A stretch of 64,000 nucleotides of DNA from Octopus vulgaris (Eukaryota). Position 1 is the stretch's first letter, and every line of letters begins with the position of its first letter. Below the pieces are notes generated by a model. The model was not told the DNA's origin. It worked only from the letters and a program-made list of their open reading frames with translations, and searched no databases. Below, piece after piece: positions 6,020 through 56,945 of this stretch. The stretch lies in NCBI GenBank assembly GCA_951406725.2, contig OX597815.1:1364001-1428000 (forward strand), written 5' to 3'. The position numbers and the translations under genes are program-made.

Positions 6020-6232
6020 TGTTACACATTCATATCTATGTGTTTGTGTATGCCAAACTACATCCCCACTCTTGGCACTATTTTGTTAGTGAACAGTACA
6101 AAGTGTGTGTAAAGTATATAATGTATTACTACGCTGAATGTCGTCGTCCGTGTATCATGAATAGAAAATAAACACGTAACAATGGTTTTCAATTGGTTGT
6201 CTTTCCCATTAGAACCCAAACTACACATAACA
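6020..6232 (+). repeat. 3' LTR of nested element
   Basis: Preceded by a PPT and followed by TSD GTCAT. Confidence 0.93.
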
Positions 6233-6612
6233 GTCATCGAGCTAGGAGGGCATGTATGATCTTTTAATGAAGGACAACCAATTTGGGTGAAGAGACTGGA
6301 AACCAGTCCAGCCAAAGTGGGGAAAACTCTATCACCAAGGTCAGTACTTGTTGAGGCAGATTCAGGACTAATTCATCAAAACAGAAGCCATTTTCGCAAG
6401 AGAAGAGAGAAAACCAGAATTATCCACCTTACCAACCATACCCAGAGACATTCCTGAGTATTGCTGTGAAAATTCAGCAGAACATCTTGCCGAAAAAGTT
6501 GACCCACCAGAGAGCCAGTTCACTGTACACAGGGACGTCTCAAGCCAGCAGTGGTTGGAGAATTCAAACACCAAAGAAACTGTCATTATGAACTCATAAC
6601 TTGAAAGGGGAA

Positions 6613-6797
6613 TGTGGTGTTATCTCCCTTTCATTAGTCCCCTACCATTACAGGAACTCTCTAGTTTAAAAGAACACATTTGGGTCCCTGATAGTAAGAG
6701 GCCATTACTGTGTATGCTTTGCTAATAAATGGACGTATTTCACGCTGAATTCTCTTTCAAGATATTAACAAATATCGTCAACCTTCATTATACCACA
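6613..6797 (+). repeat. 3' LTR of the outer Gypsy element
   Basis: TGTGGT...ACCACA inverted termini, upstream PPT, internal AATAAA near 6724. Confidence 0.75.
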
Positions 6798-7099
6798 GTG
6801 AGATGGTAATCTTTGAGATCAGGGGTTCATGTGGGGATGAGATGAGCCAGAAGGGCAGTGACATCAACGTTCGAGGGGCCAGACCGGAACAGGAAGTGGG
6901 AGAGAGGAAGTGAGGAAAGCAAGACCAGGGTCGTCTTCTTTTGACCTGGTGTAGTTACCTGAATTAACTAGAGAGGAACAAAAGTGACTGGGAAACTGAT
7001 ATTTTAGATCAGAACAATTGGAGAGGTGCTGTTAGGACAGCCACAAAGAAAAGATGATTCAGAGCTCTGAGTTTAGAAGAGCCGATTGCAAAGGAACAA

Positions 7100-7950
7100 T
7101 TGGAACTGAAATCAACAGTGAATGTTGGATATGTATAAGACAACTTTGATGTTACAATGGGATCTTCAAACTCCACCCAGGTCACTGATGTTGTTGGTCT
7201 ATTATTACTTTTGAAAATTAAGGAAGAATTCCCTAATATCAGCAAAGGTTTGTATGGAGATGATGTGTTGTTTGCTACAAGCGATCAATAGGATAAGGAA
7301 AAGACTAATAACATTTTTAAAGCTATATAACTTAGACATCCTATTTGAAAACATCACTAAAGCTGTTCATTTTTGGCTGTAACATTAAATTTAGACAATG
7401 GCTTATTTTATCCTTACCACAAAGCCTATTAAAACCATTAATTATATCCATGCCTCGTTCAATCATTCCCAAAGTGTTATTAATGGGGTGGTCAAAAGGG
7501 TGTCATTAAGAATTTCTAACTTATCTGCAAGTGGAAATATTTTTATAACTTTACCTCCTTTTGTAATACAGAATTGAGGAAGAGAGGATTCAATAGGAAG
7601 ATACACCGTGTCAACGATACACTATTTAAAAATATATTAGGTAAACATTTTTCAAATCTTGCAAAATTAAACATTGATACTCGTTCTGTGGACGACCCTC
7701 CCACGCATCAGGTCCACCACCATAATAGAAGACACTAGAATACATTTAATTATAATAATTATTATACTGAGCAGATTAGGAACAAACTCAGCAAGGAAAT
7801 GGGAAATCATCTGGTTCACCCTCCCCCTCAGTAATCTCCCTAAATTACTTTTTAGGATTATTGACAGGAATTTCCCATTAGGCCATAAATATCCCATTTT
7901 TAATAGATCCTGTAGCTTCCCTAAATCACAACTCTGTGCCACAGGAAAGC
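7100..7950 (+). mobile_element. Penelope-like element RT remnant
   Basis: Reads FDVTMGSSNSTQVTDVVGL...GLYGDD, YIHASFNH and IIWFTLP, motifs typical of PLE reverse transcriptases; frameshifted. Confidence 0.7.
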
Positions 7951-8138
7951 TTTAGCCTACGCGATGATGGGCAAATATGGAAATTCATCAAGTCTGGTGA
8001 ATCGTAGATAAGGGATATCAGTTGGTCTGAGCAAACTGCACCCACAACAACTGGCAATACAAAAATCTTGGGAAACTAAACAAGAACAATCAGCCATCCC
8101 CTGTACATCATCGCCATCTGAAATCCAGATACAAACTG

Positions 8139-10155
8139 TTGTCCCTGAATGCCCGTAGTTTATGCAACAAGGTGCATCTTTTTGACTCTTACGTCAATAG
8201 TATCAACCCAGATTTCATCACAGTCACGGAAACATGGGCACATTCTGCACGCTGTGATGGAGTTTTCAGCATAGCCAGCTACAACCAGTTCCGCAAAGAC
8301 CGCATTAATCGCTATGGAGGGAGTGTGATGGTTTTTGTTCGATCAAATCTATCAGCAATCCCTTGTGATGATTTAAACCAATCTCAGCAGGAAGTATTTT
8401 TCTGCAATATACACATGGCCATGTCAACAATTCTGCTTGGAGTCGTTTACCGCCCCCCAAATTATCGTCAAGACGCACAGCTTTTTTATATCCTCAGAGC
8501 TGCTGCCATGAAAACAGCCACTTATGTTTATGTTGCGGGGGACTTCAATTTCCCTGAGATTGACTGGGAGGCCTTCCGTTGGCCGCAAAGTGCAGAAGAT
8601 TTCCTTGAACTGGTGCTGAATTCAAATTGGTCCCAAGTCGTTACCTCCCCCACAAGGGGTAACAACACTTTGGATCTGCTACTTACCGCTTCTCCTGAAA
8701 CAATTATCAGTGTCACTACTGAAGAACCTTTAGGTGACTCTGATCATTCCATGATCATGGCTGACTTGTCTCTGATTGGTTGTAACAAAAAACACAACCA
8801 TCTTCAAACTGCCCGCTTTGACTGGAATAAAGCAAACTGGAGGTCTTATTGTACTGACCTGCAACGCCCAAACTGGCTCGAATTTTATGCCTCTGGAGAT
8901 GTGAACACTATACTTCAGAACATTCTGAATTCAATAAGGGCGGCATGTGCAGCATCAGTGCCATGCAAGCACAAAAAACCCACCCAATAGTGCAATTTGG
9001 GAGACTGCAGCAGTCCGACTTGCCAGGAAAGAACGCCGTAATGCTGAACAGGAATACAAATTGCACAAATCAGAGAGCAACAGGAAAAAGCGCAGTGCTT
9101 GAATTCGAACAACGCATTGCAACCAACCCTGACAGCAAAGTGTTCTGGAAGTATGTGCACTCAAAGCAGAGACCTCACTCTCCAGTTGGTCCCCTTCGCA
9201 ATTCCCACACAGGACAGATTACTGGCAATCCCAAAGAATGTGCAGAAATCATTGCTGGATGCTATGCCGGCATCTTTACTGTCGAAGACCAAAATGTTCC
9301 ATCTTCATCACCACTGACATCGGACTCTATATCTTCTATGCAATTTACACCAGCAATTCTACAACGCTACCTTAAGAATAAACGCAATTATGCCTCTCCT
9401 GGTCTCGATGGTGTTACATACCTACTTCTCAAATGCGGTGGGTACTTTCTTCTAGGCTAACTTTCTCTATTCTTCCAATTCTGTCTTGACAATGGTGTTA
9501 CTCCAGAGCAGTGGAAAACTGCCAGTGTTATCCCTCTGTTCAAAAAAGGTGACCGCACATCGCCTGTCAACTATCGCCCCGTCAGTCTTACTAGCTGCAT
9601 CGCGAAACTGATGGAATCCTGTATCAGAGAAACCCTCTGGAACTTCTGGAAGTCTCACAGCCTCATCCAGCCGTCACAATTTGGATTTATTCCTAACTCC
9701 AGCTGCTGTAATCAACTCATCAAGTTTCTTGAGGACATTACCCAAATCACTGATCGCGGATTCTAGGTGGATGTTGTTTACCTGGACTTTGCTAAGGCTT
9801 TTAATTCTGTGCCACACAAAAGACTTATGGTGAAGCTCTCTGCGTTGGGCGTAAGAGACGATCTCTATAACTGGTTGAAGTCCTTTATTTTCTGCCAAAA
9901 AGAGGTTGTCACAGTTCTAGGTCAGCATTCTTCACCCTATGAGATGACATCTGGTGAACCACAGGGATCTGTTCTTAGCCCCTTTTATCTGTTGCATATG
10001 TTAATGACATAGATGCCAACTTAAAGAATGCCACAGTGCTGAAATATGCAGATGACATCAAGCTGTACCTCGAAATAAAGAGGTCAGATCCTGTACACGA
10101 TAGATCTCTATTGCAAGCAGACCTGGACACAATGCAGCAGTGGATCATGGCAAAA
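8139..10155 (+). mobile_element. Degenerate CR1/L2-group LINE ORF2 (APE endonuclease + RT)
   Basis: SLNARSL, VTETW, VYRPP, GDFN, LDLLL, SDH (APE). SPGLDG, NYRPVSLTS, YLDFAKAF, PQGSVL, KYADD (RT). Stops and frameshifts throughout. Confidence 0.9.
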
Positions 10156-11021
10156 CCTTGAAGTCATGATGACTGCCATCCTTTAACTTATAAGACTTAA
10201 TAAGTATGTGTTCTACTCAAAAATATTGAGTATCATCATCATCATCATCATTTAACGTCCGCTTTCCATGCTAGCATGGGTTGGACGGTTCAACTGGAAG
10301 CCAGAAGGCTGCACCAGGCTTCTGGCTTTCCAGACCCCTTCAGTTTAATGGTTAATCGTTGATACATATGGCTTCACATAAAAACGTGTGTATATATGTG
10401 CATATAGTGTAGATAGATAAATGATAGAAAATGGAATGAACATTTTTTTATTTACACTGTACAATGACATTAGGTGGCCAATAACTATGGACAAGCTTTG
10501 CCTAGCATTTTACGTTTCTATCTAAATCATATTTAACTGGGTGCGCGTGTGTGTATAGATAGATAGATAGATAAACAGACCGATATATATATTTAACTGG
10601 GTGTGTATATATAGATAGATAGACAGACCGATATATAGCAATATAGGGTACTATATTAGATTATCTTGGATTTTTTTGGAAACCCTTGCAACATAAAATA
10701 CCCTTTTAACAATAAAGGAAAATGAAAAAAAATCATTAATTTTGGGGACAAATTTGGAAGCTGGATAGAGTAATACAAGAGAGATATGGTAGCTCCCTGT
10801 CGTTGTGAAACATGGATATTAGTTACCAATCATTTAGTTAATTGGTTGACTAATAACAGAAATGAAAGAGAACCAATGTATGGTTCTTATTCCCATAATG
10901 ACCCTCCCAAGATACAAGGAATTTTCTTTTCTTCCATAAATATAATCAATTTTGTGTGTGTGTGTGTGTGTGTGGAAATGTTGAACGATGTAATGGTTTA
11001 AAATTAGGAGTATAATAGCAA

Positions 11022-11166
11022 GAAAAATATTCAGGGCATACCTTAACAAAAATATTCAGGGGATACCATCATCATCAGGAAAATATTCAGGGTATACCTC
11101 ATTGAAAATATTCAGGGGATACCCTAGCGAAAATATTTAAGGGATACCTTAACGAAAATATTCAGT
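11022..11166. repeat. About six ~25-bp tandem repeats (GAAAATATTCAGGGGATACC core) directly after the TK1-like stop codon
   Basis: Repeated AAAATATTCAGGG(G/C/T)ATACC with short variable linkers. Confidence 0.8.
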
Positions 11167-11169
11167 CAT

Positions 11170-11511
11170 TTATGGACTACTGAATAATTTGTTTCTATTT
11201 ACAGTAGTTTTGAAGTTAGCCAATGGTGGTGGGCTAAATGTCTCGTCTTGAGCAGGAACAGGAGCTGGATCCAATGGTTTAGTAACCTTAGGTACCAGAG
11301 GTGATGGTTTAGTAACTGGTATGTCTGCAGTTGAGTGTTCCAGAAGTGGTGTGACATTCTCTTTGAAGTTTTCTTTCAACGGACGTCTTGGAGTAAAAGA
11401 TTCATGTGGAGATTTGGCAGATCTTGAAGTGAGAGACTGATGAGGTAACTTGAAACATCTTCGACACACTGGTTCATAGTGCTTGGAGAAGCCGGAATGG
11501 TCTTCTTGAAC
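11170..11511 (-). CDS. TK1: TK1-like exon 7 (second CxxC plus Pro/Ser/Thr-rich tail with KEN and D-box motifs)
   Basis: ttccag acceptor; HYEPVCRRCFK; TPRRPLKENFKEN; stop at 11170; same frame as ORF 11170-11469. Confidence 0.85.
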   Translation of the reverse strand, partial: VQEDHSGFSKHYEPVCRRCFKLPHQSLTSRSAKSPHESFTPRRPLKENFKENVTPLLEHSTADIPVTKPSPLVPKVTKPLDPAPVPAQDETFSPPPLANFKTTVNRNKLFSSP

Positions 11512-14500
11512 CTGGAACCAGTAATTAATAAAGTAATTACGATAACTAATTAGTTAATTGGGGCACCTCCAAATTAGCCTCATATAGTTAAGGGACATCA
11601 AGCTGGTGAATCCTGTTACATCTTACCAAATTTGGTCTTAATTCTCTCAGGTTAACCAAAGACCCCCTTGAATCCATGACACAAAGTGTCTTTCTTTTAA
11701 AACATTCATCATGGTGCCACGTAAAAAGTGCTGGGGTTGGTGTCACAAAAACAAAAAACAAACATACTGATGCTGTTGCCATGTAAAAAGCATCTGTGAA
11801 GTGTTTGGGGGTTAGGAAAAGCATTCAGTTGTAGGAAAACTGCCAAACAGACGATGGAACCTAGTGTAGCTCCTGTCAAACCATCCAACCCATGCCAGCA
11901 CGGAAAACAGACGATGGAACCTAGTGTAGCTCCTGTCAAACCATCCAACCCATGCCAGCAGGGAAAGCAGACAGAAAGAAGTATTCAACCTGCACCTGTC
12001 GTAGAACAGAAGATGCGACCTGTTTGCGTAAAAAGGCAGCAGCTTGGCCGGGAATGCCTTCCTCGTCTCTGAGCTACAAACCTTCAGTTCAAGTTACATC
12101 AATCACTCTTTGGGTAAATGGTTAAAGAACAAAAGAAAGAAACTGAGGACAGAATCGCAGAAAAGCGAACTGGAGGAGACTTAGAGGTCAGCCATTAGTG
12201 AGATGGTCAGATTAGGTTTTGGTTGAGAATCTATCTGGAACATTTGCTAAGGAACTTCTGGAAGGGCAAGTTTGAGAACTCTGAGCCTACAACCTACACC
12301 AGAATAAGGGGGCAATGAAAACGGAAGTTTTTAATAAGGATGTAAAAATCATTTACTACAAACAAATATGGTAAAGGCACTGATAACAAAAGCATTCTTT
12401 GATGCCAAACTAATTCTTCAGTTGGTCACAAAAAAGAGGTAAAAAAAAAAATGTCAGGAAACCTGGACAAAAATAATTTAGGAAAATTCTTTAACTTTAT
12501 GAAAATAAAAAATTTGTGACTGAGTGGTAAGAAGCTAGCTTTCCACCCACAGAGTTTTGAGTTCAGGCCCACTGCGTGGTATTTTGGGCAAGTGTCTTCT
12601 ACTATAGCCTCAGGCCATACAAAAGGCTTGTGAGTAGATTTGGGAACTGTAAACTGAAAGAAGCCCATCGTGTGTGTCCGTGTGTCCTTGTTTGTCTCCC
12701 ACCAGTGCTTGACAACCAGTGTTGGTGTGTTTACATTCCTGTAACTTAGCAATTCAGCAAAAAAGACTGATAGAATGAGTACCAGACTTTAAAAAGTACA
12801 AGTACTGAAGTTGATTCCTTCAACTAAAATTCCTCTAGGTTGTGCCCCAGCATGGCCACAGTCAGATGACTGAAATGAGTGGAAGAAGAAAAAGAAACAT
12901 TTTACCTGAGATTCTGAGTCCCGAAAATGAGTGAAAGAGGCATTGTGTGAGCAATAAACGCAGACAGCAGACAGCTTGTCTACCCTTTCAGCATGTGAGA
13001 TTAAGGATAAGATACCCGGGTAACCCTGTTGAAGTGAAGCAAAGACAAGAACAGATTAACAAAAGAGATAAGCATCAGCAGTTCAGCTTAAGTTGGTTGA
13101 TAATCTTACATTAGTATTAAAAGATGTTTATTATTATTATCATGTGCTGGTGGCACGTAAAAAGCACCAACCGATTGTGGCCACTGCCAGCCTCCCCTGG
13201 CACATAAAAAGCACCCACTACACTCACAGAGTGGTTGGCATTAGGAATGGCATCCAGCTGTAGAAACACTGCCAGATCAGACTGGAGCCCGGTGCAGCCT
13301 CCTGGCTTCCCAGACCCCAGTTGAACCGTCCAACCCATGCTAGCATGGAAAGCAGACATTATTATTATTATTATTATTATTGTGAGTACTTCCACCCTCT
13401 GAGCAAGGGTGGAAGTACTCACAAGTAAATGTACCACACTGCATAATCCCTTTCTCATTCACATGTTCTCTTTGCAGACCTCCTTGATATAAAACAAAGG
13501 GTTTAGTTTTGCAAACCCCAATTCTATTTGATTTCCAATTAAATTGGGTCTCAATGAAATATGCTGGCCCAAGATAACAGCACTAACTGGCTCACTACGT
13601 GGACATGAGTTCAAACCTTACTAGAGACACAATGGCTAACCCGGCAGGTGTGAGTGAGTTCAATATTTACAAAAGGAATTATAGTTTTGTAATCCGGTAC
13701 AAGACATAAGACACAGTCTGTGTGGCTGTGAGAAGGACCCATACCTAAAATGTACAGAAGACATCCACAAGGGGAGACAACTGTTTCAATAACATACGAA
13801 TGAAGAAATTTACAAAAAAAAACCCATTCCATTGTTAGTTCTGCTAGCTTGAAGAAACCATCATCATTTAACATGTTTTCAATGCCGGCATGGGTTGGAC
13901 GGTTCAACAGGAGCTGTACCAGGCGCCAGTCATCTATTGTGGCAAGATTTCTATGGCTGGATGCCCTTCCTGATACCAACCACTTTACAGGGTGGACCGG
14001 ATGCTTTATACATGGCACCAGCAGTAATAAACATCCAAACCTGATCTCTGGTGGTTTAACAACAACTTACCCCTCCAACCTGTCTCAGAGACCCTGAAAA
14101 CAGTCATGGCAGCTGTGCCCCCTGACTTCAGGTTATTAAAAGTAAAAAAAAAAAACCCACCAAACTACTGTTAGCTCCCCCATTTTAGTAATAAGAAGGG
14201 ATCTAAGTGCAGCTGTTACCTTCTTCAGGTGGGTAGAGTCACGTCCGGCAACGATTACAGTTTTACCTTTGTCAGCCAAGTCATTGGAAAAAGATGCAAC
14301 GGCGTCATACTGGAATTAAAAAAAGAGCAATGAGAGAGAGAGGGAGGGAGGAGAAAGTTGGAGGAAAGGATGGAGAGAGAGAGAGGGGTGGGGAGAGAGA
14401 GAGGTGGGGAGAGATGAGAATAGAAACAAACACCCAATATTGACTGACAATCTGGAAATTATGGACAGGATTTGAACTCAAAACAAAAAGATGTTATTAA

Positions 14501-17500
14501 AAGCTACAATACATTTTATTCCCCATGCGACAATCCACCCATGCCATCACAAGCTAAAACCTCCTTCAATCACATCATTATCATTTTAATGTCCAGCTTT
14601 CTATGTCTGCATAATTCAGACAAAGTCTGTGAAGATTTTTAGCAGCCGGATGCCATTCTGTCACCAACATTTGTTTGTTTCCAAGGGAGCTAAAATTTGC
14701 CAAAGGAGGGCATGCGTGATGTGTATGAACATGTCAGTGTATATGTATGTCATCATCATCATTTAACGTCCACTTTCCATGCTAGCATGGGTTGGACAGT
14801 TCAACTGGGGTCTGGGGAGCCCGAAGGCTGCACCAGGCCAGTCAGATCTAGCAGTGTTTCTACAGCTGGATGCCCTTCCTAACGCCAACCACTCCGAGAG
14901 TGTAGTGGGTGATTTTATGTGCCACCGACACAGGTGCCAGACGAGGCTGGCGAACGGCCACGCTCGGATGGTGTTTTTATGTGCCACCGACACAGGTGCC
15001 AGACGAAGCTGGCGAAATATATATATATACACCATCCAAGCATGATCATTGCCAGAGCAGTCAACTGGCTTCCATGCCAGTGGCACATAAAAGGGCACCA
15101 TTCGAACGTGATCGTTACCAGCGTCGCCTTACTGGCACGTGTAAACAGATTCGAGCAAGGTCATTGCCAGTACCACCTGACTGGCCCTCGTGCCAGTGGC
15201 ACATAAAATCACTCACTACACTCTCGGAATGGTTGGCATTAGGAAGAGCATCCAGCTGTAGAAACTCTGCCAGATCAAGATGGAGTCTGGTGCAGCCTTC
15301 AGTCAAAATCGTCCAACCCATGCTAGCATGGAAAGCGGACGTTAAACAATGATGATGATATACACACAAACACATTATCATCATCATTTAAAGTCCATGC
15401 TGGCATGCTGCACCAGGATCCAGTCTGATCTGGTGTGGTTTTCTATGGCTGGATGCCCTTCTTAATGCCAGAGTAATGGGTGCCTTTACATGCCATTTGC
15501 GTGGCACCAGTATCTGCCGTGACTGAGATTTTGCTTGGCTTGATGGGTCTTCTTATATATATAAATAAAATATATATATATATATATATATGCAAGTAGT
15601 TGATAGCATCTGTTGCCTGGGTGACAAGTCGGATGCTCCGAAAGTGTAGCTGCAAGAATAAGAATAGCCTGGGCAAAGTTCAGAGACCTCTCACTCAGAG
15701 TAAAAGGTAGACTGTATGACGCATGTGTGTGAACAGCCCTGCTACATGGCAGTGAAACATTGGCTGTGATTGCTGAGGAGATGCGTGGGCTTGCAAGGAG
15801 TGAAGCCGATATGCTGCACTGGATGTGTGACGTCAGTGTGCATGCAAGACGGAGTGTGGGCACCCTAAGAGAGGGCTTGGACTTAGGAAGTATCAAATGC
15901 GGTGTGCAGGAGAGACAACTACACTAGTGTGGTCATGTGTTACTAATGGATGGGGACGGCTGTGTGAAGGAGTGTCACACCCTTGCAGTTGAGGGAGCCT
16001 GAAGAAGAGGTGGACCCTGGAGGACGTGGGATGAGATGGTGGAGTGTGATCTTCAGGCGTTGGGCCTAACTGAGGGAATGACGAGTGACCGAGGTCTTTG
16101 AAGGTGTACTGCGCTTGTGAGGACCTATTGAGGCGAGGTCGATGTCGTGGCTGATGGCGGTGCCACCTGATTGGCACCCATGCCAGTGGCTCGTTAAAAG
16201 CACTATTTGAGCATGATCATTGTCAGTGCCACCTGACTGGTTCCCATGCCAGTGGGACGTAAAAAGCACCATTCAAGAGTGGTCGATGCCAGGCCCGCCT
16301 GACTGGCTCCTGTGCTGGTGGCACGTAAAAAAGCACTCACTACACTCTCAGAGTGGTTGGCGTTAGGAACGGCATCCAGCTGTAGAAATTTTGCCAGATC
16401 AGATTGGAGTCTGGTGCAGCCTTCTGGCTTGGCAGCACCCAGTCAAACCGTCCAACCCATGCCAGGATAGAAAGCAGACGTTAAACGACGATGACGATGA
16501 CAATATATATATATACACACACAGACACACACACTTTGATAGGTTTCGGCCAATATTGGCTTAGGCCATATCTAACTTAATAGCACCACCTGGCAAAGTC
16601 ATTCAAATCAAGAATTGGACGACGTGGCTCACTCAAGGAGAGAGTTATTGTTTGCAGAGACATATCTGGGATTTTTTGAAGGAATTTGTCCAAAGACTAC
16701 TTAAACTTTATGGGGTCTCTTTCTGCTTTCGTAAACATACACACACACATATATATATATAATCATCGTTTAACGTTTCCATGCCGGCATGGGTTGGACG
16801 ATTGATTGAGGGCTGGCAAACCAGACGGCTGCACCAGACTCCAATCTGATCTGGCAAGGTTTCTACAGCTGGATGCCCTTCCTAATGCCAACCACTTCGT
16901 GAGTGTAATGCGTACTTTTACATGCCAGTCAGGTGGTACTGGCAACGGCCACGCTCAAATGGTGTTTTTTTATGTACCACCTGCACAGGAGCCAGTCCAG
17001 CGGCATTTGCTATGACCTCGCTCGAATGCTTTTTTCACGTGCCATTATATAAATATATAAACATATATGTGTGTGTGTGTGTGTGTATAATTTTGATAAC
17101 TTTGAAAGGTTTCGGCCAGTATAGGCCCAGGCCATGTCTAACTTAATAGCACCACCTGGTGAAGTCTATTCTTCACATATGGGGCACCATGGCCCACTAG
17201 CAAAGAGTTATTATTGTTGGGGACATATCTGGGTGCATATACCTAATTCGTTGAATGTGCCACTGAAGAAAGGGCAATTATGCCTAAAATATGCATATAC
17301 ACTCATCACCTAGCTTTCTGTCTTCAATCACATTATTTACATGGACGTATTCATATATGAAACATAGTAATTTGCGATGCTGGCTCTGAATTCTATAGAA
17401 AATGTCCAGAGATAAACTTAGAAATGTACATTATATAGCCTGTGTGTATGCCTATGTATTGTGATGACAGTACGCGATTCCTGTATAACAAGACACACAA

Positions 17501-20500
17501 AATCCATATTGCTCTTTTCTTCCTTCATAAAAGCAGCACAACACAAAACAAGATTTTCTTCCTGACATATCGCCTACATATATTTTCAATAATCACTCAT
17601 TCAGGGTCTGACCTAGGGTTAAGCAACAAGCAAGTGGTTTCACCCAACAATCATTCCTACTTACACAATGTCCATCGTCAATACCAATCACGTCGTATTG
17701 ATCAGCAAGTTCCAAGTACGTCTCCAGTGGTTTTCTTTTCGTCTGATCAATCAGTCTGAAAGTGGAAAAGAACAGTTTCGCTGTGTCACGATAAAAGACA
17801 AATAAGAATGGGGGGCAAAAGCGACAGGCTGAGTCTGGACAGAAAGGAGGGGGGGGTTAAGGGAATGATGACGATGATGACAACATACCACATGTGGCAG
17901 AAAACCCATCAAACCCATGCAAACAAGGTACAAAAAAAAAAAAAAACCGGGTGGATGATGTTAAAGCTGGTTAATTACCTTTCCGAGTCCTGTTCTATGA
18001 GAAAGCAGCGAGATTGAGCAATCTTGTACCTTTGAATGCGAAGATTCAGTTCAGTTCTGAAAATAGAAAAAAAAAAAAAAAAGTGAATAAATACTGCTTT
18101 AATATACACATAGAGGAATATATGCATATCTACACATCTTCCTTCACACACTTATGGGGCACCACCCCCTTTGTCCTTTCTCTAATATTATTACTACCCC
18201 ACACTGTTCCCTGAAGCCAAGCCCTGCCTCTGTCTCTCTCCCATCTTCCTGGTCCTGCTGAAGTAGCCAAATATTTCCTCTCTAGTAAGAGGGTTACCTC
18301 TGTCCCACTATTGTACTCTAATCTCTGTTTCATTCCTTCTCTCTGCTGAGAGGTCCTTGTCTTGTGAGCTCATGAGTGTTGGCACCACACAAAAAGCTCC
18401 CAAGCTGGTGTGACATAAAAAGCACCCAGTGTACTTTGTAATGTAGTTGTCAGTAGGAAGGGCATCCAGCCATAGAAACCATGCCAAAACAGACAATGGG
18501 AGCACGATACAGCTCTCTGACCTTACCAGCTCCTGTCAAGCCATCCAACCCATGCCAGCATGGACAACAGATGTTAAATGGTGATACACACACACACACA
18601 CACATATATAATGTGATTTTCATCACTGTTTTAATGCCCTCTTTTCCATGCTTGCATGGGTCAGATGGAGTTTATTGATGCAGATTTCCTATGGCTGGAT
18701 GCCCTTCCTGTTGCTAGCTCTCACCTGTTACCAAGCAAGGAAATACATCCCACATGGCCAAACATGTTTTCCACAGAATGTTGGAGATGAATCACATTCA
18801 TTTACAACAATTGTCTAATGTGAAAACGTGGAGAGAAACACACACAACCAGCTTCTTTCAGTTTCTGTCTACCGAATCCATTCACAATGTCTTGGTCAGG
18901 TTATGTAGTAGAAGACACTTGCCCAAGGTGTCACACATTGGGACTGAACTCAAAACCACGTGGTTGGGAAGCAAGCTTCTTACCAGACAGCCACACCTGT
19001 GCCTTGCTGTTTAACCCTTTAGCATTTAAACCGGCCAAAAGTATTCTGCCTGTTTTATGTTCAAACTGGCCAGATCTGGTCTTTCACACCAACCCTACAA
19101 TATCATTCTAAAAATTAACAGCTACCTCATCAAAATCTCATTGCTACAAGATTAATGCCTGATTAGTTCAAGGCAATTTGGATAAAAAGGGATTAATTTT
19201 GGCAGAATAATGCGAACACTAAAGGGTTAAACTACATCCCTTGCAATAGTTTGAACTTGGTAGCCAAATGCCTTGCTTTTGTTGTCTTAATGGTGTAATG
19301 AGATGACACAAACATGTTTTCAATCTGCTCATCCTTATCCTTGACTTTGTGAAACATCCATAAAGTCACAGCTACAAGGACAGAGAACCACTGGAACTGG
19401 AGAACAGTGAAATGAAGGGCCATGCTCAAGGTGTCACCTAGTCGGGGGAAATGAACGAGTCAAATCTTGTGTTGACGGAGCCAATTAAGGGCCATACACC
19501 TTTGCATGCTAAATGGAGAGAAATAATTATGGTGGATGTATTTTATGGAGCGGTAATCCATAATTATGCAGTAAGGTAGAGATGTGGTTAAAGAATTAAT
19601 TTCCCAACCATGGCTCAGTCCTGCTGCCTGGTGTGTGGAACAAGTGTTTTGTGTCCTAAGCTGACTGAAAAGCCTTGTTTGTGGATTTGGCAGACGGAAC
19701 TGAAAAAGCCCATTGTGTGTGTGTGTGTCCTTGTAACTTAGCAGTTTGGCAAAAGAGACTAATAGAATAAGTACCAAAGTTAAGAAAACAAATAAAAGTA
19801 AATACTGGGGCTGATTTGTTTGACTAAACCCTTCAAGGCAGTGCCCCAGCATGGCCACAGTCCAATGACTGAAACAAGTAAAAGATAAAAGGTATGTGCA
19901 TGTCTGTGAGTTGGGGGTCTTCTTGTCTCGACCCCACATGATGGCTGTAAATGAACACCACCATCATACAAGCGAGGTTGTTCATTTCCAGCCTTCTGTG
20001 GAAGGGCAGCCAAACGTTGAAAATCTGCCTTGACAAATTCTGTCCGTGGTTGTTAAGTGAGGATAAAGAAAAGACAACATTAGCTCATTAACTAATATAA
20101 TTCTAATTGTTTCAGTAAATAATGGGAGACAACTCTAGGCATACTTCAATCTAATTAGACTTCCTTAGCAAAACAAACTTCACTGTAATAGAGATGAGAG
20201 AATTAGGAGGTAAATGTTTCAAACCACTGCTAAAATCATCATCATCATCGTTTAACGTCTGCTTTCCATGCTAGCATGGGTTGGACAATTTGACTGAGGT
20301 CTGGCGAACCAGACTCCAATCTGATATGGCAGAGTTTCTACAGCTGGATGCCCTTCCTAACGCCAACCACTCCGAGAGTGTAGTGGGTGCTTTTACGTGC
20401 CACCAGCATGAGGGCCAGTTAGGTGGTACTGGCAACGGTCACGCTCAAATGGTGCTTTTTATGTGCCACCTGCACAGGAGCCAATCCAGTGGCACTGGCA

Positions 20501-23500
20501 ACAACATCGCTCGAATGTTTCACGTGCCACTAGCACAAGTGCTAGTAAGATGACGTGGCAATGATCACGCTCGAATGGTGTGCTTAATGTGCCATCGACA
20601 CAGAGGCCAGCTTGTTGCTCTGGCAACAATCTCACTCGTATGGTACTCTTAGCGCTCCACTAGCAACAGATGCCAGTCACCGAGTTTGATAAACAAGATA
20701 TTTTATTATATTCTTCAGTATTTTTGAAATGAATTGAAACAATGTGTTTCTCAAGAAAAGTGTTAAAAAGCATGGCCACAGCTCGTGGGCTGAAACTAGA
20801 TAAAATAAAAAAATAGACCTGGTTGTAATCACAACCAACATTCCCTTTCAGAGTCACAAAATATTCCATGAATTGTGAATAAGCGCCAACCACCAAACAG
20901 ACACACACGCCTACTAGTCACATGATGAGGGCCGTTTCCCAGGTAAACAGATTAATGTTGCAACGGCTACACACACACACAATATTCCCTCTGACAGACA
21001 AACATTTATAGACCTATTTCTTTACTACCCACAAGGGGCTAAACACAGAGGGGACAAACAAATGGATTAAGTCGATTACATCGACCCCAGTGCATAATTG
21101 GTACTTATTTAATCGACCTTTATAGACCACCAACAGTACAACTATTTGTCTACTAGTATGTTGTATTGTATCTTCTGCTGAGGAAGAAAAAGAGAAAGAA
21201 GAGGAGGAGAGGATTAGCTGTCCAATGTAACAAACTGATGCAAAAGACGTGACCAAGGGACGTGATGAATCTCAGAATGAAATCAATGTTGTTGTTGAAC
21301 TTACGTTTTTCCGCTCAACTTGGGACCAATTATCACCTGAAAAACACCAGATTCAATTAATACAAAAAAATGATGAACTGGTAAGAAATATAAAATCTAT
21401 AATATAAATTGGACGTGGGCGATTGTTGTATTCTTTCTTGTCTTGAGGTTCACAGCCAAACGGTTGGGTGGATTTGTGTGAAAAATGGCACACATGTGGA
21501 GATGGGTGCATAGATTGGAATGCAGCTTGTATTTTTTTCCTAACTCCCATACTTACCGAGAGAATTGATTAAAACTGCTTCTAATGGAATTTCCCTCGTT
21601 CTTCTGCCACTAAAACAACCAGTTGCTTAGAAGCTGTTTTCTGACAGGGTGGGGTTAGGAAATTTTCATATAGCTGGAAGCTTCATTTGAAACAGGGGAC
21701 CCGAAATGACAAGGTTGACAAATGCTGTTATAGATTATGCCTAACCGCAAACGATCACAGCCACATCACCCAAACAGACCGGGTGAAACCGGGCTTAGCT
21801 GCTAGTGACATATAGAAAAGCAATATAGAGAAATACAGAGTGAAAATATATATAATCATCATCGTTTAACATCTGTTTTCCATGCTGGCATGGGTTGGAT
21901 GGTTCGACTGGGATCTGGGAAGCCAGGAGGCTGCACCAGGCTCCAATCTGATCTGGCAGTGTTTCTACAGCTGGATGTCCTTCCTAACGCCAACAACTCT
22001 GAGACTGTAGTGGGTGCTTTTTACGTGCCACCGGCACAGAAGCCTGTCGGGCGGCACTGGCATCGGCCATGTTCAGATGGTGCTTTCTATGTATTACTGA
22101 CCTAGGAGCCAGACAGGGCAGGAGGGCTGGCATCGACCATGTTCAGATGATGCCTCTTACGTGCCACTGGCAGCACTGGCAACGACCCACGCATGAATGG
22201 TGCTTATTGCGTGCCACCAGCACGGGATCCAGTCAGATGACACTGGCATCAGCCACAACTAGAATTTCCAATTTTCATTTTGAATTGATTGAGATTCTAA
22301 TTTTGATTTTTGATTGGCGAGGTCATTGCCGGTGCCACTGGACTGGCTCCTGTGCAGATGGCACATAAAAAGCACCATTTGAGCATGGCCGTTGCTAGTA
22401 CCACCCAACTGGCCCTCGTGCTGCTGGCACGTAAAAAGCACCCACTACACTCTCGGAGTGGTTGGCGTTAGGAAGGGCATCCAGCTGTAGAAACTCTGCC
22501 AGATCAGACTGAAACCTGGTGCAGCCATCTGGTTCACCAGACCTCAGCCAAACCGTCCAACCCATGCTAGCACGGAAAGCAGACGTTAAATGATGATGAT
22601 GAATGACAGGAGACCGAGACCTTTGGAGATATGCTGTGATTGAGAGGACCCAGCAACTAAAGTGAGATTACCGCCACACATGTCTGGCCCAGTTACGAGG
22701 ACCCCTGATGCGTTTGTGTGATATGATATGCTTGAGAAGACCTGTTGAGTCAAGTAAAACCAATATCATAGCTGTGGCCAGTGCCTCCTGACTAGCTCCC
22801 CGTGCCAATGGCATGTAAAAAGCACCATCGAACGTGGCTGATGCCTGTACCCCCTGACTGGCCCCAGTGCCAGCGACATGTAAAAAGCATTATCCAAACA
22901 TGATCAAAGCCAGGCCTGCCCAACTGGCTCCTGTGCTGCTGGCGCATAAAAAAGCATCCACTCTCAGAGTGGTGGGCGTATTCTTTACCTTCGCCATATA
23001 TACAGATAGATAGATAGATATGAATAAACGGATAGGGATAGACAGACAAATAAATAGTGAAAAGTTAAAAATTTAAAATTGGGGAGGGGGTGAAATTTGA
23101 GCCCCTTATTAAACTTTATAACAGTAATTATTAAACATATTAACGTTTGTTTCTCATAGAATGGTGTACATTTACGGAGATGTATTTGCATAGCAAGTGA
23201 CTTGACCCAAGATTGTGTGCTGAAACATATTTAATGTATATTTACGGTTATTTAAGGCAAACACATTCCACTCTAATGTTTTTATCGATATTTAATTTCG
23301 ATTTGTAGATGTTTGTCGATTTACTACGATCTCTTTAAGGTAAACAAAATCAATGGGGGGGGGGGGGTTGCATATTCGTAATGTCTAATATCTAAAGTTT
23401 AGGTATTCGAAAACCCTTTTTCAAACCAATGCATTTTTCAAAGAGAGGTGCGATTCTTCATTAGCTCCGATAGATAGATAGAAAGAGATAGATAGATAGA

Positions 23501-24076
23501 TAGAGATAGATAGAAAGAGATAGATATATAGAAAGAGAGATAGATAAATAGATATAGATAGACAGAGATAGCTAGCTAGATAGAGATAGATAAATAGATA
23601 TAGATAGACAGACAGGTATGTGGTTGACGGGGTTTCTTAACACCAACAACATTAACCTGTAGAAATATAGTTTTTATATCAAAATTAGATATTTAGTTTT
23701 TTCTATATATTTCTGTCTCTTCCTAGATATATTTTTATGAAGTCGGTGTTCAGACTTGCTTCAGAACAATTTCGGTTTTGACAAATAATTTATTAATGAT
23801 AAGATATAGAGGAAGAAAAAGAATTTTAATTGAACTTATTCAAGCATTTTTATATTTATAATAGGTTTTTCTTACGTAAAAGTCTCATTCGCCTAAGCAG
23901 ATTATTTTCAAGCATTGAAATTAATGTCATCGTGGCAAAGTTTGAAAAGTTCGTTACAAATTATTTTTTCGACATTAAAAACTTTGGGTTAAGTTTGGAT
24001 AAAACAGTTAAGTAAAATATATATAATTTACCTGAATTTCCCCTCTTTTGCTCTGATTTCCTTCCAAAGAGAGCAT
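11170..24076 (-). CDS. TK1: Thymidine kinase 1 family protein, divergent (candidate pseudoenzyme); 7 exons, 265 aa
   Basis: join(24032-24076, 21305-21336, 17979-18056, 17665-17755, 14220-14309, 12906-13025, 11170-11511), all GT-AG and in frame, 798 nt. Reads RGEIQVIIGPKLSGKTTEL, DVIGIDDGHC, GKTVIVAG, KLSAVCVYC, YEPVCRRCF, colinear with TK1 motifs. May be a paralog rather than the ortholog. Confidence 0.88.
12906..13025 (-). CDS. TK1: TK1-like exon 6 (GYPGILSLISHAERVDKLSAVCVYCSHNASFTHFRDSESQ)
   Basis: caacag / gtaaa; 120 nt; first Zn CxxC. Confidence 0.88.
14220..14309 (-). CDS. TK1: TK1-like exon 5 (YDAVASFSNDLADKGKTVIVAGRDSTHLKK)
   Basis: ttccag / gtaaca; 90 nt; homologous to [30 protein letters not shown]. 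Confidence 0.88.
14748..15360. mobile_element. Inverted pair of RTE 3'-end copies (one of >20 such tails in the window)
   Basis: Consensus (CAT)n-TTTAACGTCCGCTTTCCATGCTAGCATGGGTTGGAC...CTACAGCTGGATGCCCTTCCTAACGCCAACCACTC. Other copies near 10.2, 13.2, 16.8, 20.3, 21.9, 22.4, 25.9, 27.7, 32.8, 34.0, 39.4, 39.9, 41.1, 42.3, 47.0-47.6, 56.3, 60.4 and 63.2 kb. Confidence 0.8.
15595..16500 (+). mobile_element. 5'-truncated RTE-clade LINE (ORF C-terminus + 3' UTR + GAT tail)
   Basis: ARIRIAWAKFR, KGRLYDACV, LLHGSETL; 3' UTR with ~62-bp subrepeats; ends GTTAAACGACGATGACGATGA. Confidence 0.8.
17665..17755 (-). CDS. TK1: TK1-like exon 4 (...YDVIGIDDGHC)
   Basis: ctttcag / gtaagt; homologous to VIGIDEGQF. 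Confidence 0.88.
17979..18056 (-). CDS. TK1: TK1-like exon 3 (TELNLRIQRYKIAQSRCFLIEQDSE)
   Basis: ttttcag / gtaatt; phase 2 at both ends; resembles [20 protein letters not shown]. Confidence 0.85.
19011..19230. mobile_element. piggyBac-like MITE
   Basis: TTAA-CCCTTTAG...CTAAAGGG-TTAA; related copy in opposite orientation at 42985-43180. Confidence 0.7.
21305..21336 (-). CDS. TK1: TK1-like exon 2 (P-loop VIIGPKLSGKT)
   Basis: tttttcag acceptor, gtaagt donor, 32 nt. Confidence 0.88.
23468..23612. repeat. (GATA)n-type microsatellite
   Basis: Degenerate GATA/GAGA repeats. Confidence 0.9.
24032..24076 (-). CDS. TK1: TK1-like exon 1 (MLSLEGNQSKRGEIQ)
   Basis: ATG at 24076; donor CAG|gtaaat. Confidence 0.8.
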
Positions 24077-24388
24077 TTTGAGCAAAACGGTTCTGGACGT
24101 TAAATGAGGAAGAGGCGGAAGAAGCACCGACTTTTTTGAAACTGGTTTTTAATTACCCGCCAAACGAATTGAACTTTGACCCGATTGTTTTTAAGCTGAA
24201 ATTAGCGCTCGCTTTAGAACACGTACTCATAAAAATTCGTTTCTGTGTTTTTAATTTTTATTTATAACATTAAAAAATAACACTGATATTACAACAACAT
24301 TCTTAAAGCCTGGGTTGCTCAAATACGAAACTTTTACTGTGGAGTATGTATTTTGTTGACAACGAACATTCGCTTCCTTAGCAACAAG
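24077..24388. promoter_or_regulatory. Bidirectional promoter between TK1-like (-) and CCDC96-like (+)
   Basis: E2F-like TTTGGCGGG (minus, 24156-24164); CHR-like TTTGAA (24135-24140); RFX X-box-like GCTTCCTTAGCAAC (24372-24385); YY1-like CAAGATGGC over the CCDC96 ATG. No interspersed repeats in the interval. Confidence 0.65.
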
Positions 24389-24400: not shown

Positions 24401-27400
24401 GTATTGTTATTTAAAATATTGCTTTTGAATGTATTACATACTTTACAAAGATATAATATACAGAAAATATGGATGTATACATAGATATTATCTAAAATAA
24501 AGCTAAGCGTTGTGTTAGCGAGTTTTTTTTTATTCATTGACATTTCGATTTTCTTTCTTCGATTTTGATGTTCTAACAAAATCCCCCACGGCATCGCCAC
24601 CATTACACAGCTCCCCCACTCTCTCTCTCTCTTTTTTTTTCTCAACATATTTGTACTTTATTCGTGCACACTGATGTTGCACATTCAGCAGAAAATACTA
24701 GCTTCATTTCTTTTTTGTCTTTGGAAGACATCTGCATCCAGGGGACCCTGCAGCATTGTAGTTTGTACACAGGCTGCAGATAAGAGGGGCAAATATAAAG
24801 GATGAAATCCCGTGTTTCTTCACTTTTTAAAACGATCAGCGTTTTACGAAATAATAAATAAGGAGACCATTGATGGTCCTAATTGCTAAAGAAGGGTCAA
24901 TTAAAATTGAGGGTAAAAGTGTGTGTGGGGGGGGGCGAGATAGAAGAGATAAAATGGCTGAAGGCAGGAAATAAGTAGAAAGAAAAACAAGTTTTAAAAT
25001 ATTGAATGTAAATTTGTGCCCAATTTTTAAAATTCTTATGCTTGTTTTTTTTTTTAGGCAAAAGATGTTAGTGAAGGAATGTCTGAGACTGATCCTTCTC
25101 ATGACCAAAATGAAGAACACACAGAATCTAAACAGAAGGAAGTTGGAGAAGAAGGTCATGCAGAACCTTCTGCCCCAGGTGGGACCCATTTTCATGTTCC
25201 TTAATATTTTAATCCAGATATGAAAGACAATGTTACTTATTTGACCATTGTGGGGCTGAGATGGATTTACTGGAAGGAGTGGAATGAGGGAGGTCATGGG
25301 AGCAGAAGGACCACTGGCATGTTTGGGTTGGGGGGGAGGGGTGGCTGGTATTCTGGACAGATGTTGTTAGGTTTTAGCCAGAGGTACAGGTGGGTAGGGC
25401 TCTCACAAATATATCCCAGCTGGAAAGGATCAATGCTACAAAAGGACCGTACCACAACCGTTTCATCAGACTGGTAGAATCAATAAAATTGGTTGTTACC
25501 TTGAAGTTCTGCAGAATGGTGTCTTTGGGGGAAATGCATAAAAGAAAATGATAAATCATTATTATTATTTTATTATTAGTTTGTCCAATAATATCACCTG
25601 AGAAAAGGTGGGGCATGGTGTGTCCAGCTGTGGTCAGTCAGTCCAATGCATACTCAGATGGCTCTGCCACAGGTCAGGCATTGGTGGTCTGCTGGGGCTG
25701 CAGACAAAGAGTTGACTCTGGACTTGTGCAGTTCAGGTTTTCATTGTGCTTCTGCAATCCTGTTCAACAGGAAATACAAGAAGAAACACATCTTCCACCC
25801 ACTTCATCAACCAATCACCAATTTTCCATTACATCTTATCCTTGAGAATTCCTTGACAATCATCATCGTTTAACGTCCGCTTTCCATGCTAGCATGGGTT
25901 GGACGGTTTGACTGAGGGCTGGCGAACCAGAAGGCTGCACCAGGCTCCGGTCTTATCTGGCAAAGTTTCTACAGCTGGATGCCCTTCCTAACGCCAACCA
26001 CTCTGAGAGTGTAGTGGGTGCTTTTACGTGCCACCGGCACGGGGGCCAGTCAGGCGGTACTGGCAACGACCTCGCTCGAATTAAAATATTTTCCTTGGTT
26101 TGTTGACATGCTTTGTTGACTTTTGCCCTGGTTTCATAATATGATTGATCTGCAATAGATTTGTGTATTTGTAAAAGAACAAAGGGCATTAGGGGTCTTA
26201 GGTATAATTGGCAAGGACTAACCATCAAATAAAATAATAAAATAAGTATATAAAGATAAGCATATAAAAATAAGTGTCTAAAAAATAAAAAAAAATTTCT
26301 CTCAGTAATTCTTTCCCTTAAGAGAAATTTCTTCCCCCACTTTTATTTCTCAGCAAACCCTATTTATCTCTGCCTGTTACACTAAAAACAACTGCAGGTG
26401 GCAGCAGCAGTGTTCACCAGTCAAATTTCACGCAAATGTATAGAAAGTTTTGCTATTTCTGGCCGTAGAACGGACCAAGTGACAGAACAGCTGATACAGG
26501 GAGTCTGAGATAGTTCTATGGGTTGTGGTGGCATCTGTGATCTCTGTCTGGGTTTCTGAGACGGTGGTCTTCTGACCAAAGACTTGGTTTCAATGCTTGC
26601 ACCTCAACAGACACCAATAAAGGTATCCAAGGAAACAGGGTGGTGGTAGAGAGGCATTAAACTGGGTGGGAACTACAAGGTCTGCTCATTTCCAAATGTT
26701 TCTCTCCAGACTTGGGTGAGAGTTGTGTAGAGAATGCAATGTTGTGATTGAGGAGGAATGGTCATGGAAAGCAGACCATTTTTTGTTTTATGAGAAATAA
26801 TCTTAGAAAATGGACAAAAGATGAAATAAGAACAATAATAGATCTTAGTATGATCTGTAATATGGACAGTGTAAGTTTACATGGTGATGGTGGTGGTGAT
26901 TATGACAATGGTGGTGGTGGTGGTGGTGGTGATTCTGATTTTTTTTTTCTTCTTTTCTTTCATTTTAGTTGCTGCAGAGTCGAAGCCTGACCACACAGAA
27001 GCTGAAGAAATGGCTTCTGATGCTGCAAATGTCAAAGAAATTAAAGATGAGGATGTGAGCGGCACAGTGGATGGTGCTGCTGTTCATGGTACCCCTGCTG
27101 AAGGTGCTGCAGAAGGTGCTGAAGATGATGGTGGCGGTGGTGGTGGTGGTGGTGTTGTGACGGAGGATGTTGGTGGTGGTGGTGGTGGTCATGTTGATGA
27201 GAAAACTGATGACCAATTGATAAGTCAAGAAGGAGAAAGAAAAAAGTCGGAGGCCAAAGTTGAAGCAGGTGAGGCAGAGGAGGCAGAAGAACAACCAGAC
27301 GAGCCAAAAACGACCAGCCATGTAGAGAAGGAGGAGGAGGAGGCAAAAGGCACAGAAATGACTGCAGACCAAACTGATGAAAAGCAAGTTAAAGGTAAGG

Positions 27401-56890: not shown

Positions 56891-56932
<42 letters not shown>

Positions 56933-56945
56933 CACCACCACTACC

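What the first reader, a model, noticed from the sequence alone, without database searches (positions are those of the whole stretch)
11170..24076. Intact TK1-family gene with a rewritten active site: candidate metazoan thymidine-kinase pseudoenzyme or neofunctionalised paralog
Seen: seven exons splice in frame without stops to 265 aa, and the ORF track misses almost all of it. Exons 2, 5 and 6 are 32, 90 and 120 nt, the sizes I recall for human TK1. Retained, in human numbering from memory: P-loop GKT, Asp97, Thr163, Tyr181 and all four Zn cysteines. Replaced: GPMF->GPKL (M28K), catalytic DEGQF->DDGHC (E98D, Q100H, F101C), AALDGTF->AGRDSTH (L124R, F128H), lasso R165F and VIGG->EDHSG. The DTRY...THD segment is about 12 residues shorter. 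Known: these residues form the thymidine pocket and catalytic base of TK1, a homotetramer, and trypanosomatid TK carries an inactive TK domain. Inference: selective loss of the substrate site with fold, splicing and degrons preserved points to a regulatory subunit or a changed substrate rather than decay. I know of no described animal example.
Basis: partly seen in the sequence, partly recalled or inferred. Interest (0 to 1): 0.85.

Follow-up and report, generated by a model that had tools for sequence, protein, structure and literature searches.

The report
Octopus thymidine kinase without thymidine pocket
Octopuses and argonauts keep an intact, spliced copy of the DNA-precursor enzyme thymidine kinase 1 that has lost nearly everything needed to hold thymidine but kept its ATP, zinc and assembly sites, so it probably now does a different, possibly non-enzymatic, job.

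Summary
Seven GT-AG exons give an intact 265-aa TK1-family protein, identical to an annotated Octopus vulgaris protein; contigs from two studies (RNA by guess) are joined at the predicted junctions. Orthologs exist in two other Octopus species and Argonauta. Loss is selective: ATP/Mg residues 8 of 8 and zinc-site residues 5 of 5 kept, thymidine-pocket/catalytic residues 3 of 19 (Argonauta 1 of 19; the known dead Trypanosoma brucei domain keeps 13 of 19). Purifying selection persists, so this is no pseudogene; A-to-I editing cannot restore the site. Corrections: M28K is confined to O. vulgaris/sinensis; Thr163 and Tyr181 are not kept in Argonauta; degenerate TK1 domains also sit in database entries of pinworms. 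Best reading (0.55): a cell-cycle-regulated, ATP-binding, tetrameric pseudoenzyme; rival (0.27): a kinase/NTPase with a new acceptor. Whether octopods also have a canonical TK1 could not be tested (no genome held); it decides between 'regulatory partner' and 'repurposed sole copy'. No activity was measured. I found no paper on it in the open-access library searched.

The parts
24157..24164 (-). E2F-consensus-like site (consensus recalled) 6 nt upstream of the furthest 5' contig end (24151)
   Evidence: one of 5 matches in the window, 8.7 expected by chance, so about 3 in 100 to fall within 200 nt; table 8 (X2 record 21). Weak.
24032..24076 (-). exon 1 coding part, 45 nt, start codon (5' UTR reaches at least 24151)
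21305..21336 (-). exon 2, 32 nt: P-loop; Lys21 and Leu22 replace M28 and F29, Lys25 = K32 kept
17979..18056 (-). exon 3, 78 nt: helix alpha1 (predicted weak-dimer interface; R38 replaced by Leu) and the shortened phosphate-binding hairpin
17665..17755 (-). exon 4, 91 nt: Walker B; Asp78 = D97 kept, Asp79/His81/Cys82 replace E98/Q100/F101 (codons 17679-17665)
   Evidence: same residues in all four octopod species
14220..14309 (-). exon 5, 90 nt: Arg105 replaces L124, His109 replaces F128; this exon is absent from O. bimaculoides isoform P0002
12906..13025 (-). exon 6, 120 nt: beta6 strong-dimer strand, zinc cysteines 134 and 137, Phe146 replaces R165
   Evidence: (Pfam TK 9e-07 for this exon alone)
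11170..11511 (-). exon 7 coding part, 342 nt: degenerate lasso, Tyr164, zinc cysteines 168 and 171, then a disordered 94-aa tail with a D-box-like RxPL, two KEN motifs, six S/T-P sites and a C-terminal KLF motif; stop codon 11172-11170
10700..11169 (-). 3' UTR, covered by the spliced contig X9 record 22 to the edge of the stretch laid; nearest AATAAA at 10452

Best explanation
A TK1 pseudoenzyme. In the octopod stem lineage the molluscan TK1 gene (the locus itself or a copy) went through a burst of change that removed the catalytic Glu98 and rebuilt or dissolved the thymidine pocket, hairpin and lasso, while selection kept the P-loop/Walker-B site, the zinc site, both tetramer interfaces, the exon structure and degron-like motifs. 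It therefore most likely no longer phosphorylates thymidine and is no longer inhibited by dTTP, still folds, binds zinc and Mg-ATP, forms a dimer of dimers, is made in proliferating cells and destroyed through APC/C, and acts through protein contacts. SHOWN: sequence changes, their sharing among four species, continuing constraint, spliced contigs. MODELLED: fold and tetramer. INFERRED: loss of activity, ATP binding, cell-cycle control, non-catalytic role. Two sub-cases: repurposed sole TK1 with thymidine salvage left to TK2/dNK-type kinases (about 0.33 of the 0.55), or inactive partner of an unseen canonical TK1, as in trypanosome pseudodimers (about 0.22).
For:: of 47 columns invariant in 49 canonical metazoan-type TK1s the window protein keeps 25; by class ATP/Mg 8 of 8, zinc 5 of 5, interface 8 of 9, thymidine/catalysis 3 of 19; Argonauta 8/8, 5/5, 6/9, 1/19; the T. 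brucei N-terminal domain, reported inactive (PMC5098729 and PMC9190010, passages; identity of P0008), keeps 13 of 19. Fisher p 3e-6 (classes chosen by me after seeing alignments, from passages of PMC8757434 and PMC7694900, plus recall). Glu98 is the catalytic base and its Ala mutant in T. brucei fails to rescue. Lasso differs between Octopus and Argonauta and models at pLDDT 51 against 95-98 for the core, as expected if nothing is clamped there. Constraint: Octopus = Argonauta at 60 of 81 canonical-conserved against 35 of 75 variable columns, p 0.0006; about 8 stops expected if neutral, none seen. TK1 fold (TM 0.90 to human TK1). Homotetramer model score 0.90, best of 3 controls 0.01, runs agree in at least 94% of contacts, pLDDT at least 81; the mark was reached by 21 of 30 paired and 0 of 23 single microbial proteins, 7 of 16 animal pairs; like complexes are solved, so the pass may be from memory. 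KEN/D-box-like motifs; human TK1 KEN is an APC/C-Cdh1 degron. Enzyme-independent roles of mammalian TK1 are reported (second-hand, passages of PMC13104274).
Against: No activity or binding was measured. E98D alone is not proof: 19 of 175 other domains have Asp there, and three single-domain proteins (P0105, P0129, P0136) combine it with a largely intact pocket (the set is biased towards octopod-like sequences). Nine derived residues around Walker B and beta5 are identical in Octopus and Argonauta, which a new active site would also give. No partner protein is known. The D-box-like RxPL is missing in Argonauta, and R39 and R42 of alpha1 change there. The E2F-like site is near chance level.
Confidence: 0.55

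Rival explanations
1. Neofunctionalised enzyme: a kinase or NTPase with a new acceptor. The intact P-loop and Asp78 bind Mg-ATP, Asp79 serves as base, and His81, Cys82 and Arg105 shape a new, more polar or anionic acceptor site open to solvent because hairpin and lasso are reduced.
For: ATP/Mg residues 8 of 8 in both lineages at 63% core identity. Residues 70-84 are identical in all five octopod sequences, and derived D79, H81, C82, Y83, D84, G104, R105, S107, Y114 are shared 9 of 9 with Argonauta against 35 of 75 at variable columns (set picked after the fact). Very long stem (6.9 changes per column) before the octopod split.
Against: Over all 31 derived positions Octopus = Argonauta at only 16, no more than background (p 0.67). 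The same changes recur in degenerate halves of tandem TKs (DDGH in P0012, P0020, P0250; AGRD in P0012, P0014, P0015), which looks like an easy path of degeneration. His68 is deleted, Arg60 lost or shifted, D58 lost in Argonauta. The dead T. brucei domain also keeps 7 of 8 ATP/Mg residues. No other family resembles it (a blank that proves little).
Confidence: 0.27
2. Still a (weak) thymidine or deoxyuridine kinase and the working TK1 of octopods, with compensating changes.
For: Databases name it thymidine kinase (automatic names). No canonical cephalopod TK1 was named among the best 120 of 7838 hits. Squid embryos incorporate BrdU in a 10-minute pulse (bioRxiv 10.1101/2021.10.28.466353, passages), so cephalopods have thymidine salvage. 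Some natural TKs carry E98D.
Against: 16 of 19 pocket residues lost in the window, 18 of 19 in Argonauta, far more than in a domain reported inactive; 15 of 15 named gastropod and bivalve TK1s keep all four motifs. BrdU data are from a squid, not an octopod, and TK2/dNK-type kinases can do this step (recalled).
Confidence: 0.08
3. A gene under relaxed selection on its way to loss, or a transcribed pseudogene.
For: Fast evolution: 63% core identity Octopus-Argonauta against a mean of 77% among 15 gastropod and bivalve TK1s; in-frame deletions keep occurring; M28K is recent; O. bimaculoides models include exon-5-less and alternative-end isoforms.
Against: Intact frame in four species with about 150 corrected substitutions between Octopus and Argonauta, chance of no stop about 0.0002 if neutral; significant constraint; losses cluster in one functional class; spliced contigs in two studies.
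Confidence: 0.06

Closest known systems
Human and canonical molluscan TK1 (Pfam PF00265; PDB 1xbt, 1w4r, 2orv, 2wvj)
   Same: Fold (TM 0.87-0.90, 38% identity), seven exons (for human), P-loop, Asp97, four zinc cysteines, predicted dimer-of-dimers, KEN-bearing tail; nests among molluscs in the tree without P0022 (91/82, not starred).
   Different: Catalytic Glu98, most thymine-pocket residues, His68, the hairpin (12 residues shorter) and the lasso are gone; evolves several times faster.
Inactive TK domain of the Trypanosoma brucei tandem TK (and the degenerate second half of Giardia TK)
   Same: TK1 fold with P-loop and zinc site kept and Glu98 replaced (Asn in P0008); reported to stabilise the active domain and raise substrate affinity (PMC9190010, passage citing Ranjbarian 2012, which I could not read).
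   Different: Those are fused to an active domain in one chain; the octopod protein stands alone in the window and in four species (one of several Argonauta models is fused to an FN3 gene, P0178, probably read-through). The octopod pocket is far more eroded (3 and 1 of 19 against 13 of 19). No active partner is shown.
Degenerate TK1 domains in database entries: pinworms Enterobius vermicularis (P0036) and Syphacia muris (P0194), Trichomonas/Histomonas/Anaeramoeba tandems, unnamed single-domain P0022
   Same: E98D, loss of lasso glycines and R165 with ATP and zinc sites kept.
   Different: Independent origins; the pinworm and protist forms are tandem fusions; P0022 (57-58% identical to three unnamed crustacean-type TK1s) also loses D97. 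None was found described in the papers searched, and I did not search for them by name.

Membership tests
TK1 (type II thymidine kinase) structural family | Profile match to PF00265 over the whole domain | tested here: met
   104.8 bits, cut-off 20.6, profile 1-176
TK1 (type II thymidine kinase) structural family | RecA-like alpha/beta domain plus zinc/lasso domain | tested here: met
   model core pLDDT 95-98, best matches human TK1; four cysteines kept
TK1 (type II thymidine kinase) structural family | Dimer-of-dimers assembly | tested here: inconclusive
   model supports (0.90 against 0.01) but may recall solved TK1 tetramers; interface residues 8 of 9 kept
Active TK1 enzyme (EC 2.7.1.21) | P-loop Lys32/Ser33 and Walker-B Asp97 | tested here: met
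   8 of 8
Active TK1 enzyme (EC 2.7.1.21) | Catalytic base Glu98 | tested here: not met
   Asp79 in all four octopod species; Glu invariant in 49 of 49 canonical sequences; not restorable by A-to-G editing
Active TK1 enzyme (EC 2.7.1.21) | Thymine pocket (M28, F101, L124, F128, F133, T163, R165, Y181) and lasso 172-177 | tested here: not met
   3 of 19 pocket/catalytic positions kept, 1 of 19 in Argonauta
Active TK1 enzyme (EC 2.7.1.21) | Measured ATP-dependent thymidine phosphorylation | not testable with these tools
   needs recombinant protein
Trypanosome-type pseudo-TK domain | TK1 fold lacking catalytic residues | tested here: met
Trypanosome-type pseudo-TK domain | Fused in tandem to an active TK domain | tested here: not met
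   single domain in P0001, P0003, P0004, P0005; no second TK in the window (tblastn); the 'longer' search with exon 7 found only 265 and 236 aa forms (weak)
Trypanosome-type pseudo-TK domain | An active TK1 partner exists in the same organism and is modulated | tested here: inconclusive
   no genome held; no cephalopod named among best 120 of 7838, a weak test
Pseudogene | Stops or frameshifts, no splicing, no constraint | tested here: not met

The most novel reading that the evidence does not exclude
This is the only TK1 locus of octopods: the lineage gave up cytosolic TK1 catalysis altogether, left thymidine salvage to another kinase family, and yet has kept the TK1 protein under selection since before the Octopus-Argonauta split, either as a catalytically dead ATP-binding tetramer or with a new acceptor. 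It would be a natural separation-of-function mutant showing that TK1 has an ancient second job.
Probability: 0.35. Interest if true: 0.8.

Novelty: new variant of a known kind. Interest (0 to 1): 0.6.

Why it matters
TK1 is one of the slowest-changing salvage enzymes in animals (gastropods and bivalves share about 77% of the core) and a clinical proliferation marker whose enzyme-independent roles are claimed from cancer cells only. A free-standing TK1 that has lost the thymidine site but is kept by selection offers a clean test of such roles, or a new enzyme activity on the TK1 scaffold. It also warns that octopus 'thymidine kinase 1' annotations, and expectations about BrdU/EdU labelling or nucleoside-analogue activation in octopus cells, may be wrong.

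Tried and rejected
Genome-wide search for a second TK1: not possible, no genome held. Indirect tries: mixed-profile search, 7838 hits, best 120 listed, 15 named gastropods/bivalves and no cephalopod, but the octopod proteins themselves fell below the cut, so weak; tree of 76 proteins shows no separate cephalopod-like canonical branch among unnamed rows; JGI metagenome scan gave 5 loci, all with Glu-type Walker B and no octopod motif; earlier findings: nothing relevant. Supplements of seven cephalopod papers searched for thymidine kinase/KITH/tk1: none in six (one PDF unreadable; I did not open the file lists, so they may not hold full annotations), one 'tk1' row without sequence for the squid Idiosepius. 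No RNA holder listed on record: the 20 holders are 'RNA by guess' or unknown. Many introns are repeats and gave only noise; table 5 did not show the exon joints (391 rows hidden), so junctions were read from table 8. RNA editing as a rescue: none of ten key codons can reach the canonical residue by A-to-G, and the eight listed coding differences in contigs miss the active site (50 rows of differences were hidden, but exon 4 and 5 counts leave no room). First tree joined octopods to P0022 by long branches; without it they nest in molluscs, unstarred. dN/dS not computed: no coding DNA for other species. Atlas search without PF00265 gave no usable hit. Weak tblastn hit in intron 1 (E 0.44) is chance. 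Ranjbarian 2012 not held. Search for a paper on TK1 absence in Drosophila gave nothing usable, so that precedent is recalled only.
Full report
1. What is in the sequence. On the minus strand between 24076 and 11170 lie seven exons of 45, 32, 78, 91, 90, 120 and 342 nt, all introns GT-AG with pyrimidine-rich acceptors, giving 265 codons and a stop. Only exon 7 falls in a long ORF. Searching with exon 7 found a 265-aa protein identical to my translation, CAI9716853.1 of Octopus vulgaris. The gene is thus annotated, but only as 'thymidine kinase, cytosolic-like'. It matches Pfam TK over the full profile and human TK1 at E 2.5e-27.

2. It is spliced. Twenty public runs from eight studies hold the last exon; none is on record as RNA. 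I laid 4 of the 24 listed. In X9 (study P3) one 1528-nt contig carries exon 1 at letters 1-99, exon 4 at 208-298, exon 5 at 299-389, exon 6 at 390-510 and exon 7 with 3' UTR at 511-1317; the 110 letters between exons 1 and 4 equal exons 2 plus 3. In X1 (study P1) a 1014-nt contig shows the same joins, with 155 letters before exon 4, the sum of exons 1-3 (table 8). X2 and X14 gave exon-bounded pieces only. That these runs are RNA is the tool's guess; a processed DNA copy is not formally excluded, though the runs are of transcriptome size. The eight listed coding differences are four silent and four outside the active site, two of them matching O. sinensis. A-to-G editing, common in cephalopods (recalled), cannot turn any of ten key codons back to the canonical residue.

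3. It is shared by octopods. Orthologs: O. sinensis (99%), O. bimaculoides (90% core) and Argonauta hians (63% core). All carry Asp-His-Cys-Tyr at human 98, 100, 101, 102 and, where exon 5 is present, Arg at 124. M28K is limited to vulgaris/sinensis; T163 and Y181 are lost in Argonauta; the lasso differs between the genera. An exhaustive profile search of 1.84 billion representatives gave 5658 hits; among the best 150 only P0002 and P0005 are of this type. A squid or cuttlefish form could hide inside either cluster, so the state in ten-armed cephalopods is unknown. Fifteen of 15 named gastropod and bivalve TK1s are canonical. In a 76-row tree the octopods join the degenerate P0022 by long branches; in a 24-row tree without it they nest in molluscs (91/82, not starred) on a stem of 6.9 changes per column, against 0.03-0.3 elsewhere. 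The tail shares a D-box-like RxPL with 8 of 9 gastropods and a terminal LF motif with 14 of 15 molluscs. So the gene descends from molluscan TK1 after a burst of change.

4. The loss is selective. Of 47 columns invariant in 49 canonical sequences the window protein keeps 25. Using residue roles from passages of PMC8757434 (Glu98 as base; F128, V172, V174, G176, D58, R165, Y181, F133, F101, M28, R60 at thymidine and transition state) and PMC7694900, completed from recall and fixed after I had seen the alignments: ATP/Mg 8 of 8, zinc 5 of 5, interfaces 8 of 9, thymidine/catalysis 3 of 19; Argonauta 8, 5, 6 and 1. The T. brucei N-terminal domain, reported inactive (passages of PMC5098729 and PMC9190010), keeps 13 of 19. 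Against this: Asp for Glu98 occurs in 19 of 175 other domains, three of them single-domain with a mostly intact pocket, and Arg60 may be shifted rather than lost.

5. It is under constraint. Octopus and Argonauta agree at 60 of 81 columns conserved in canonical TK1 but 35 of 75 variable ones (p 0.0006). About 150 corrected substitutions separate them; a neutral sequence would have gained some 8 stops (a rough estimate). The derived residues as a whole are not specially conserved (16 of 31, p 0.67), but the nine around Walker B and beta5 are all shared.

6. Models. AlphaFold2 with 73 sequences gives a confident core, a weak hairpin (62) and lasso (51) and a disordered tail; the best matches are human TK1 chains, TM 0.87-0.90. 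Four copies of residues 8-176 fold into a dimer of dimers through alpha1 (22-41, 132-141) and beta6 (118-131): score 0.90, best control 0.01, contacts agree at least 94%, pLDDT at least 81; calibration 21 of 30 pairs, 0 of 23 single chains, 7 of 16 animal pairs; solved TK1 tetramers exist, so this may be memory.

7. Regulation. The tail has two KEN motifs (one in Argonauta, none in 15 other molluscs), an RxPL and six S/T-P sites; the human KEN box is an APC/C-Cdh1 degron. An E2F-like site sits 6 nt from the furthest 5' contig end, weak evidence alone. In the squid Idiosepius a gene annotated tk1 is listed with cell-proliferation genes (PMC11202396, one passage and two supplement rows); no sequence was seen.

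8. How it most likely works. Best reading (0.55): thymidine kinase activity is gone; a zinc-stabilised, Mg-ATP-binding tetramer is kept for a non-catalytic, cell-cycle-linked role, either as the repurposed only TK1 (0.33) or as inactive partner of a canonical copy (0.22). Mammalian TK1 is reported to have enzyme-independent effects (second-hand, PMC13104274 passages). Main rival (0.27): a new acceptor, with Asp79 as base and His81/Cys82/Arg105 as determinants; against it, the same substitutions recur in degenerate halves of protist tandem TKs and the lasso is unconstrained. Residual TK (0.08) and decay (0.06) fit poorly. Everything about activity and binding is inference.

9. The open point. 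No genome was held, so a canonical octopod TK1 could not be sought directly. None is named among the best 120 of 7838 hits, where 15 other molluscs are; this is a weak hint towards a sole copy. Squid embryos take up BrdU (bioRxiv 10.1101/2021.10.28.466353, passages), so salvage exists in cephalopods, but TK2/dNK-type enzymes can supply it, as recalled for Drosophila (not confirmed).

10. Known or new. It belongs to the TK1 fold family and fails the tests for an active TK1. Dead TK1 domains are known in T. brucei and Giardia as fusions. Database entries show more: pinworm tandems with E98D second domains (P0036, P0194), many protist tandems, and the unnamed single-domain P0022. What differs here is a free-standing, much more deeply remodelled protein fixed across an animal clade. 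Searches for thymidine kinase with octopus (17 papers, 15 listed), cephalopod (5 of 5), squid/cuttlefish (15 of 886 listed) and mollusc evolution (25 of 899 listed) showed no paper on it, judged from titles and abstract starts; subscription journals and bioRxiv supplements were not searchable and could hold a description. Verdict: real, new variant of a known kind, interest 0.6.

Noticed in passing
window 28305-28559, minus strand: An uninterrupted stretch matching the first TPR region of human NASP (phmmer E 7.6e-17 to 7v1m), lying antisense inside what seems to be an intron of the neighbouring gene; retrocopy fragment or nested gene.
   Followed up: partly
window 24389 onward, plus strand; exons near 26875-27468, 33295-33630, 46122-46550, 56767-57108, 58055-58387: A CCDC96/CCDC113-type gene (PF13870) with acidic exons; a possible start codon about 310 nt from the TK1-like start suggests a head-to-head arrangement. 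Start and exon links not verified; useful as synteny marker.
   Followed up: partly
window 48194-56271: Tandem array of a 62-nt unit, 130 copies, 98% matches, open in three frames on the minus strand for long stretches; the unit resembles part of the interspersed repeat that fills the introns.
   Followed up: partly
P0178 (Argonauta hians GAB1598181.1): One 2536-aa model fuses the TK1-like domain to an FN3-rich, thioredoxin-bearing protein; no FN3 exons in this window. Probably read-through or a model error, but it names the downstream neighbour.
   Followed up: partly
P0036, P0194: Pinworms Enterobius vermicularis and Syphacia muris encode tandem TK1 proteins whose second domain has E98D and a degenerate lasso, an animal parallel to the trypanosome pseudodimer.
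   Followed up: partly
P0022: Unnamed single-domain TK1 with D97N, E98D, F101R and no lasso glycines, 57-58% identical to canonical P0021/P0196/P0201 that branch near crustacean sequences; possibly a second, independent animal pseudo-TK1.
   Followed up: partly
P0012, P0015: Unnamed tandem TKs in which both domains look degenerate, with Arg at the L124 position as in octopods.
   Followed up: no
P0002, P0004 (O. bimaculoides): Annotated isoforms lacking the 30 residues of exon 5, or ending without exon 7.
   Followed up: no
window 454-9766: Broken retroelement remains: RT/RNase H pieces at 454-1104 and an endonuclease domain at 8031-8990, with gag- and integrase-like pieces between (by eye).
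   Followed up: no
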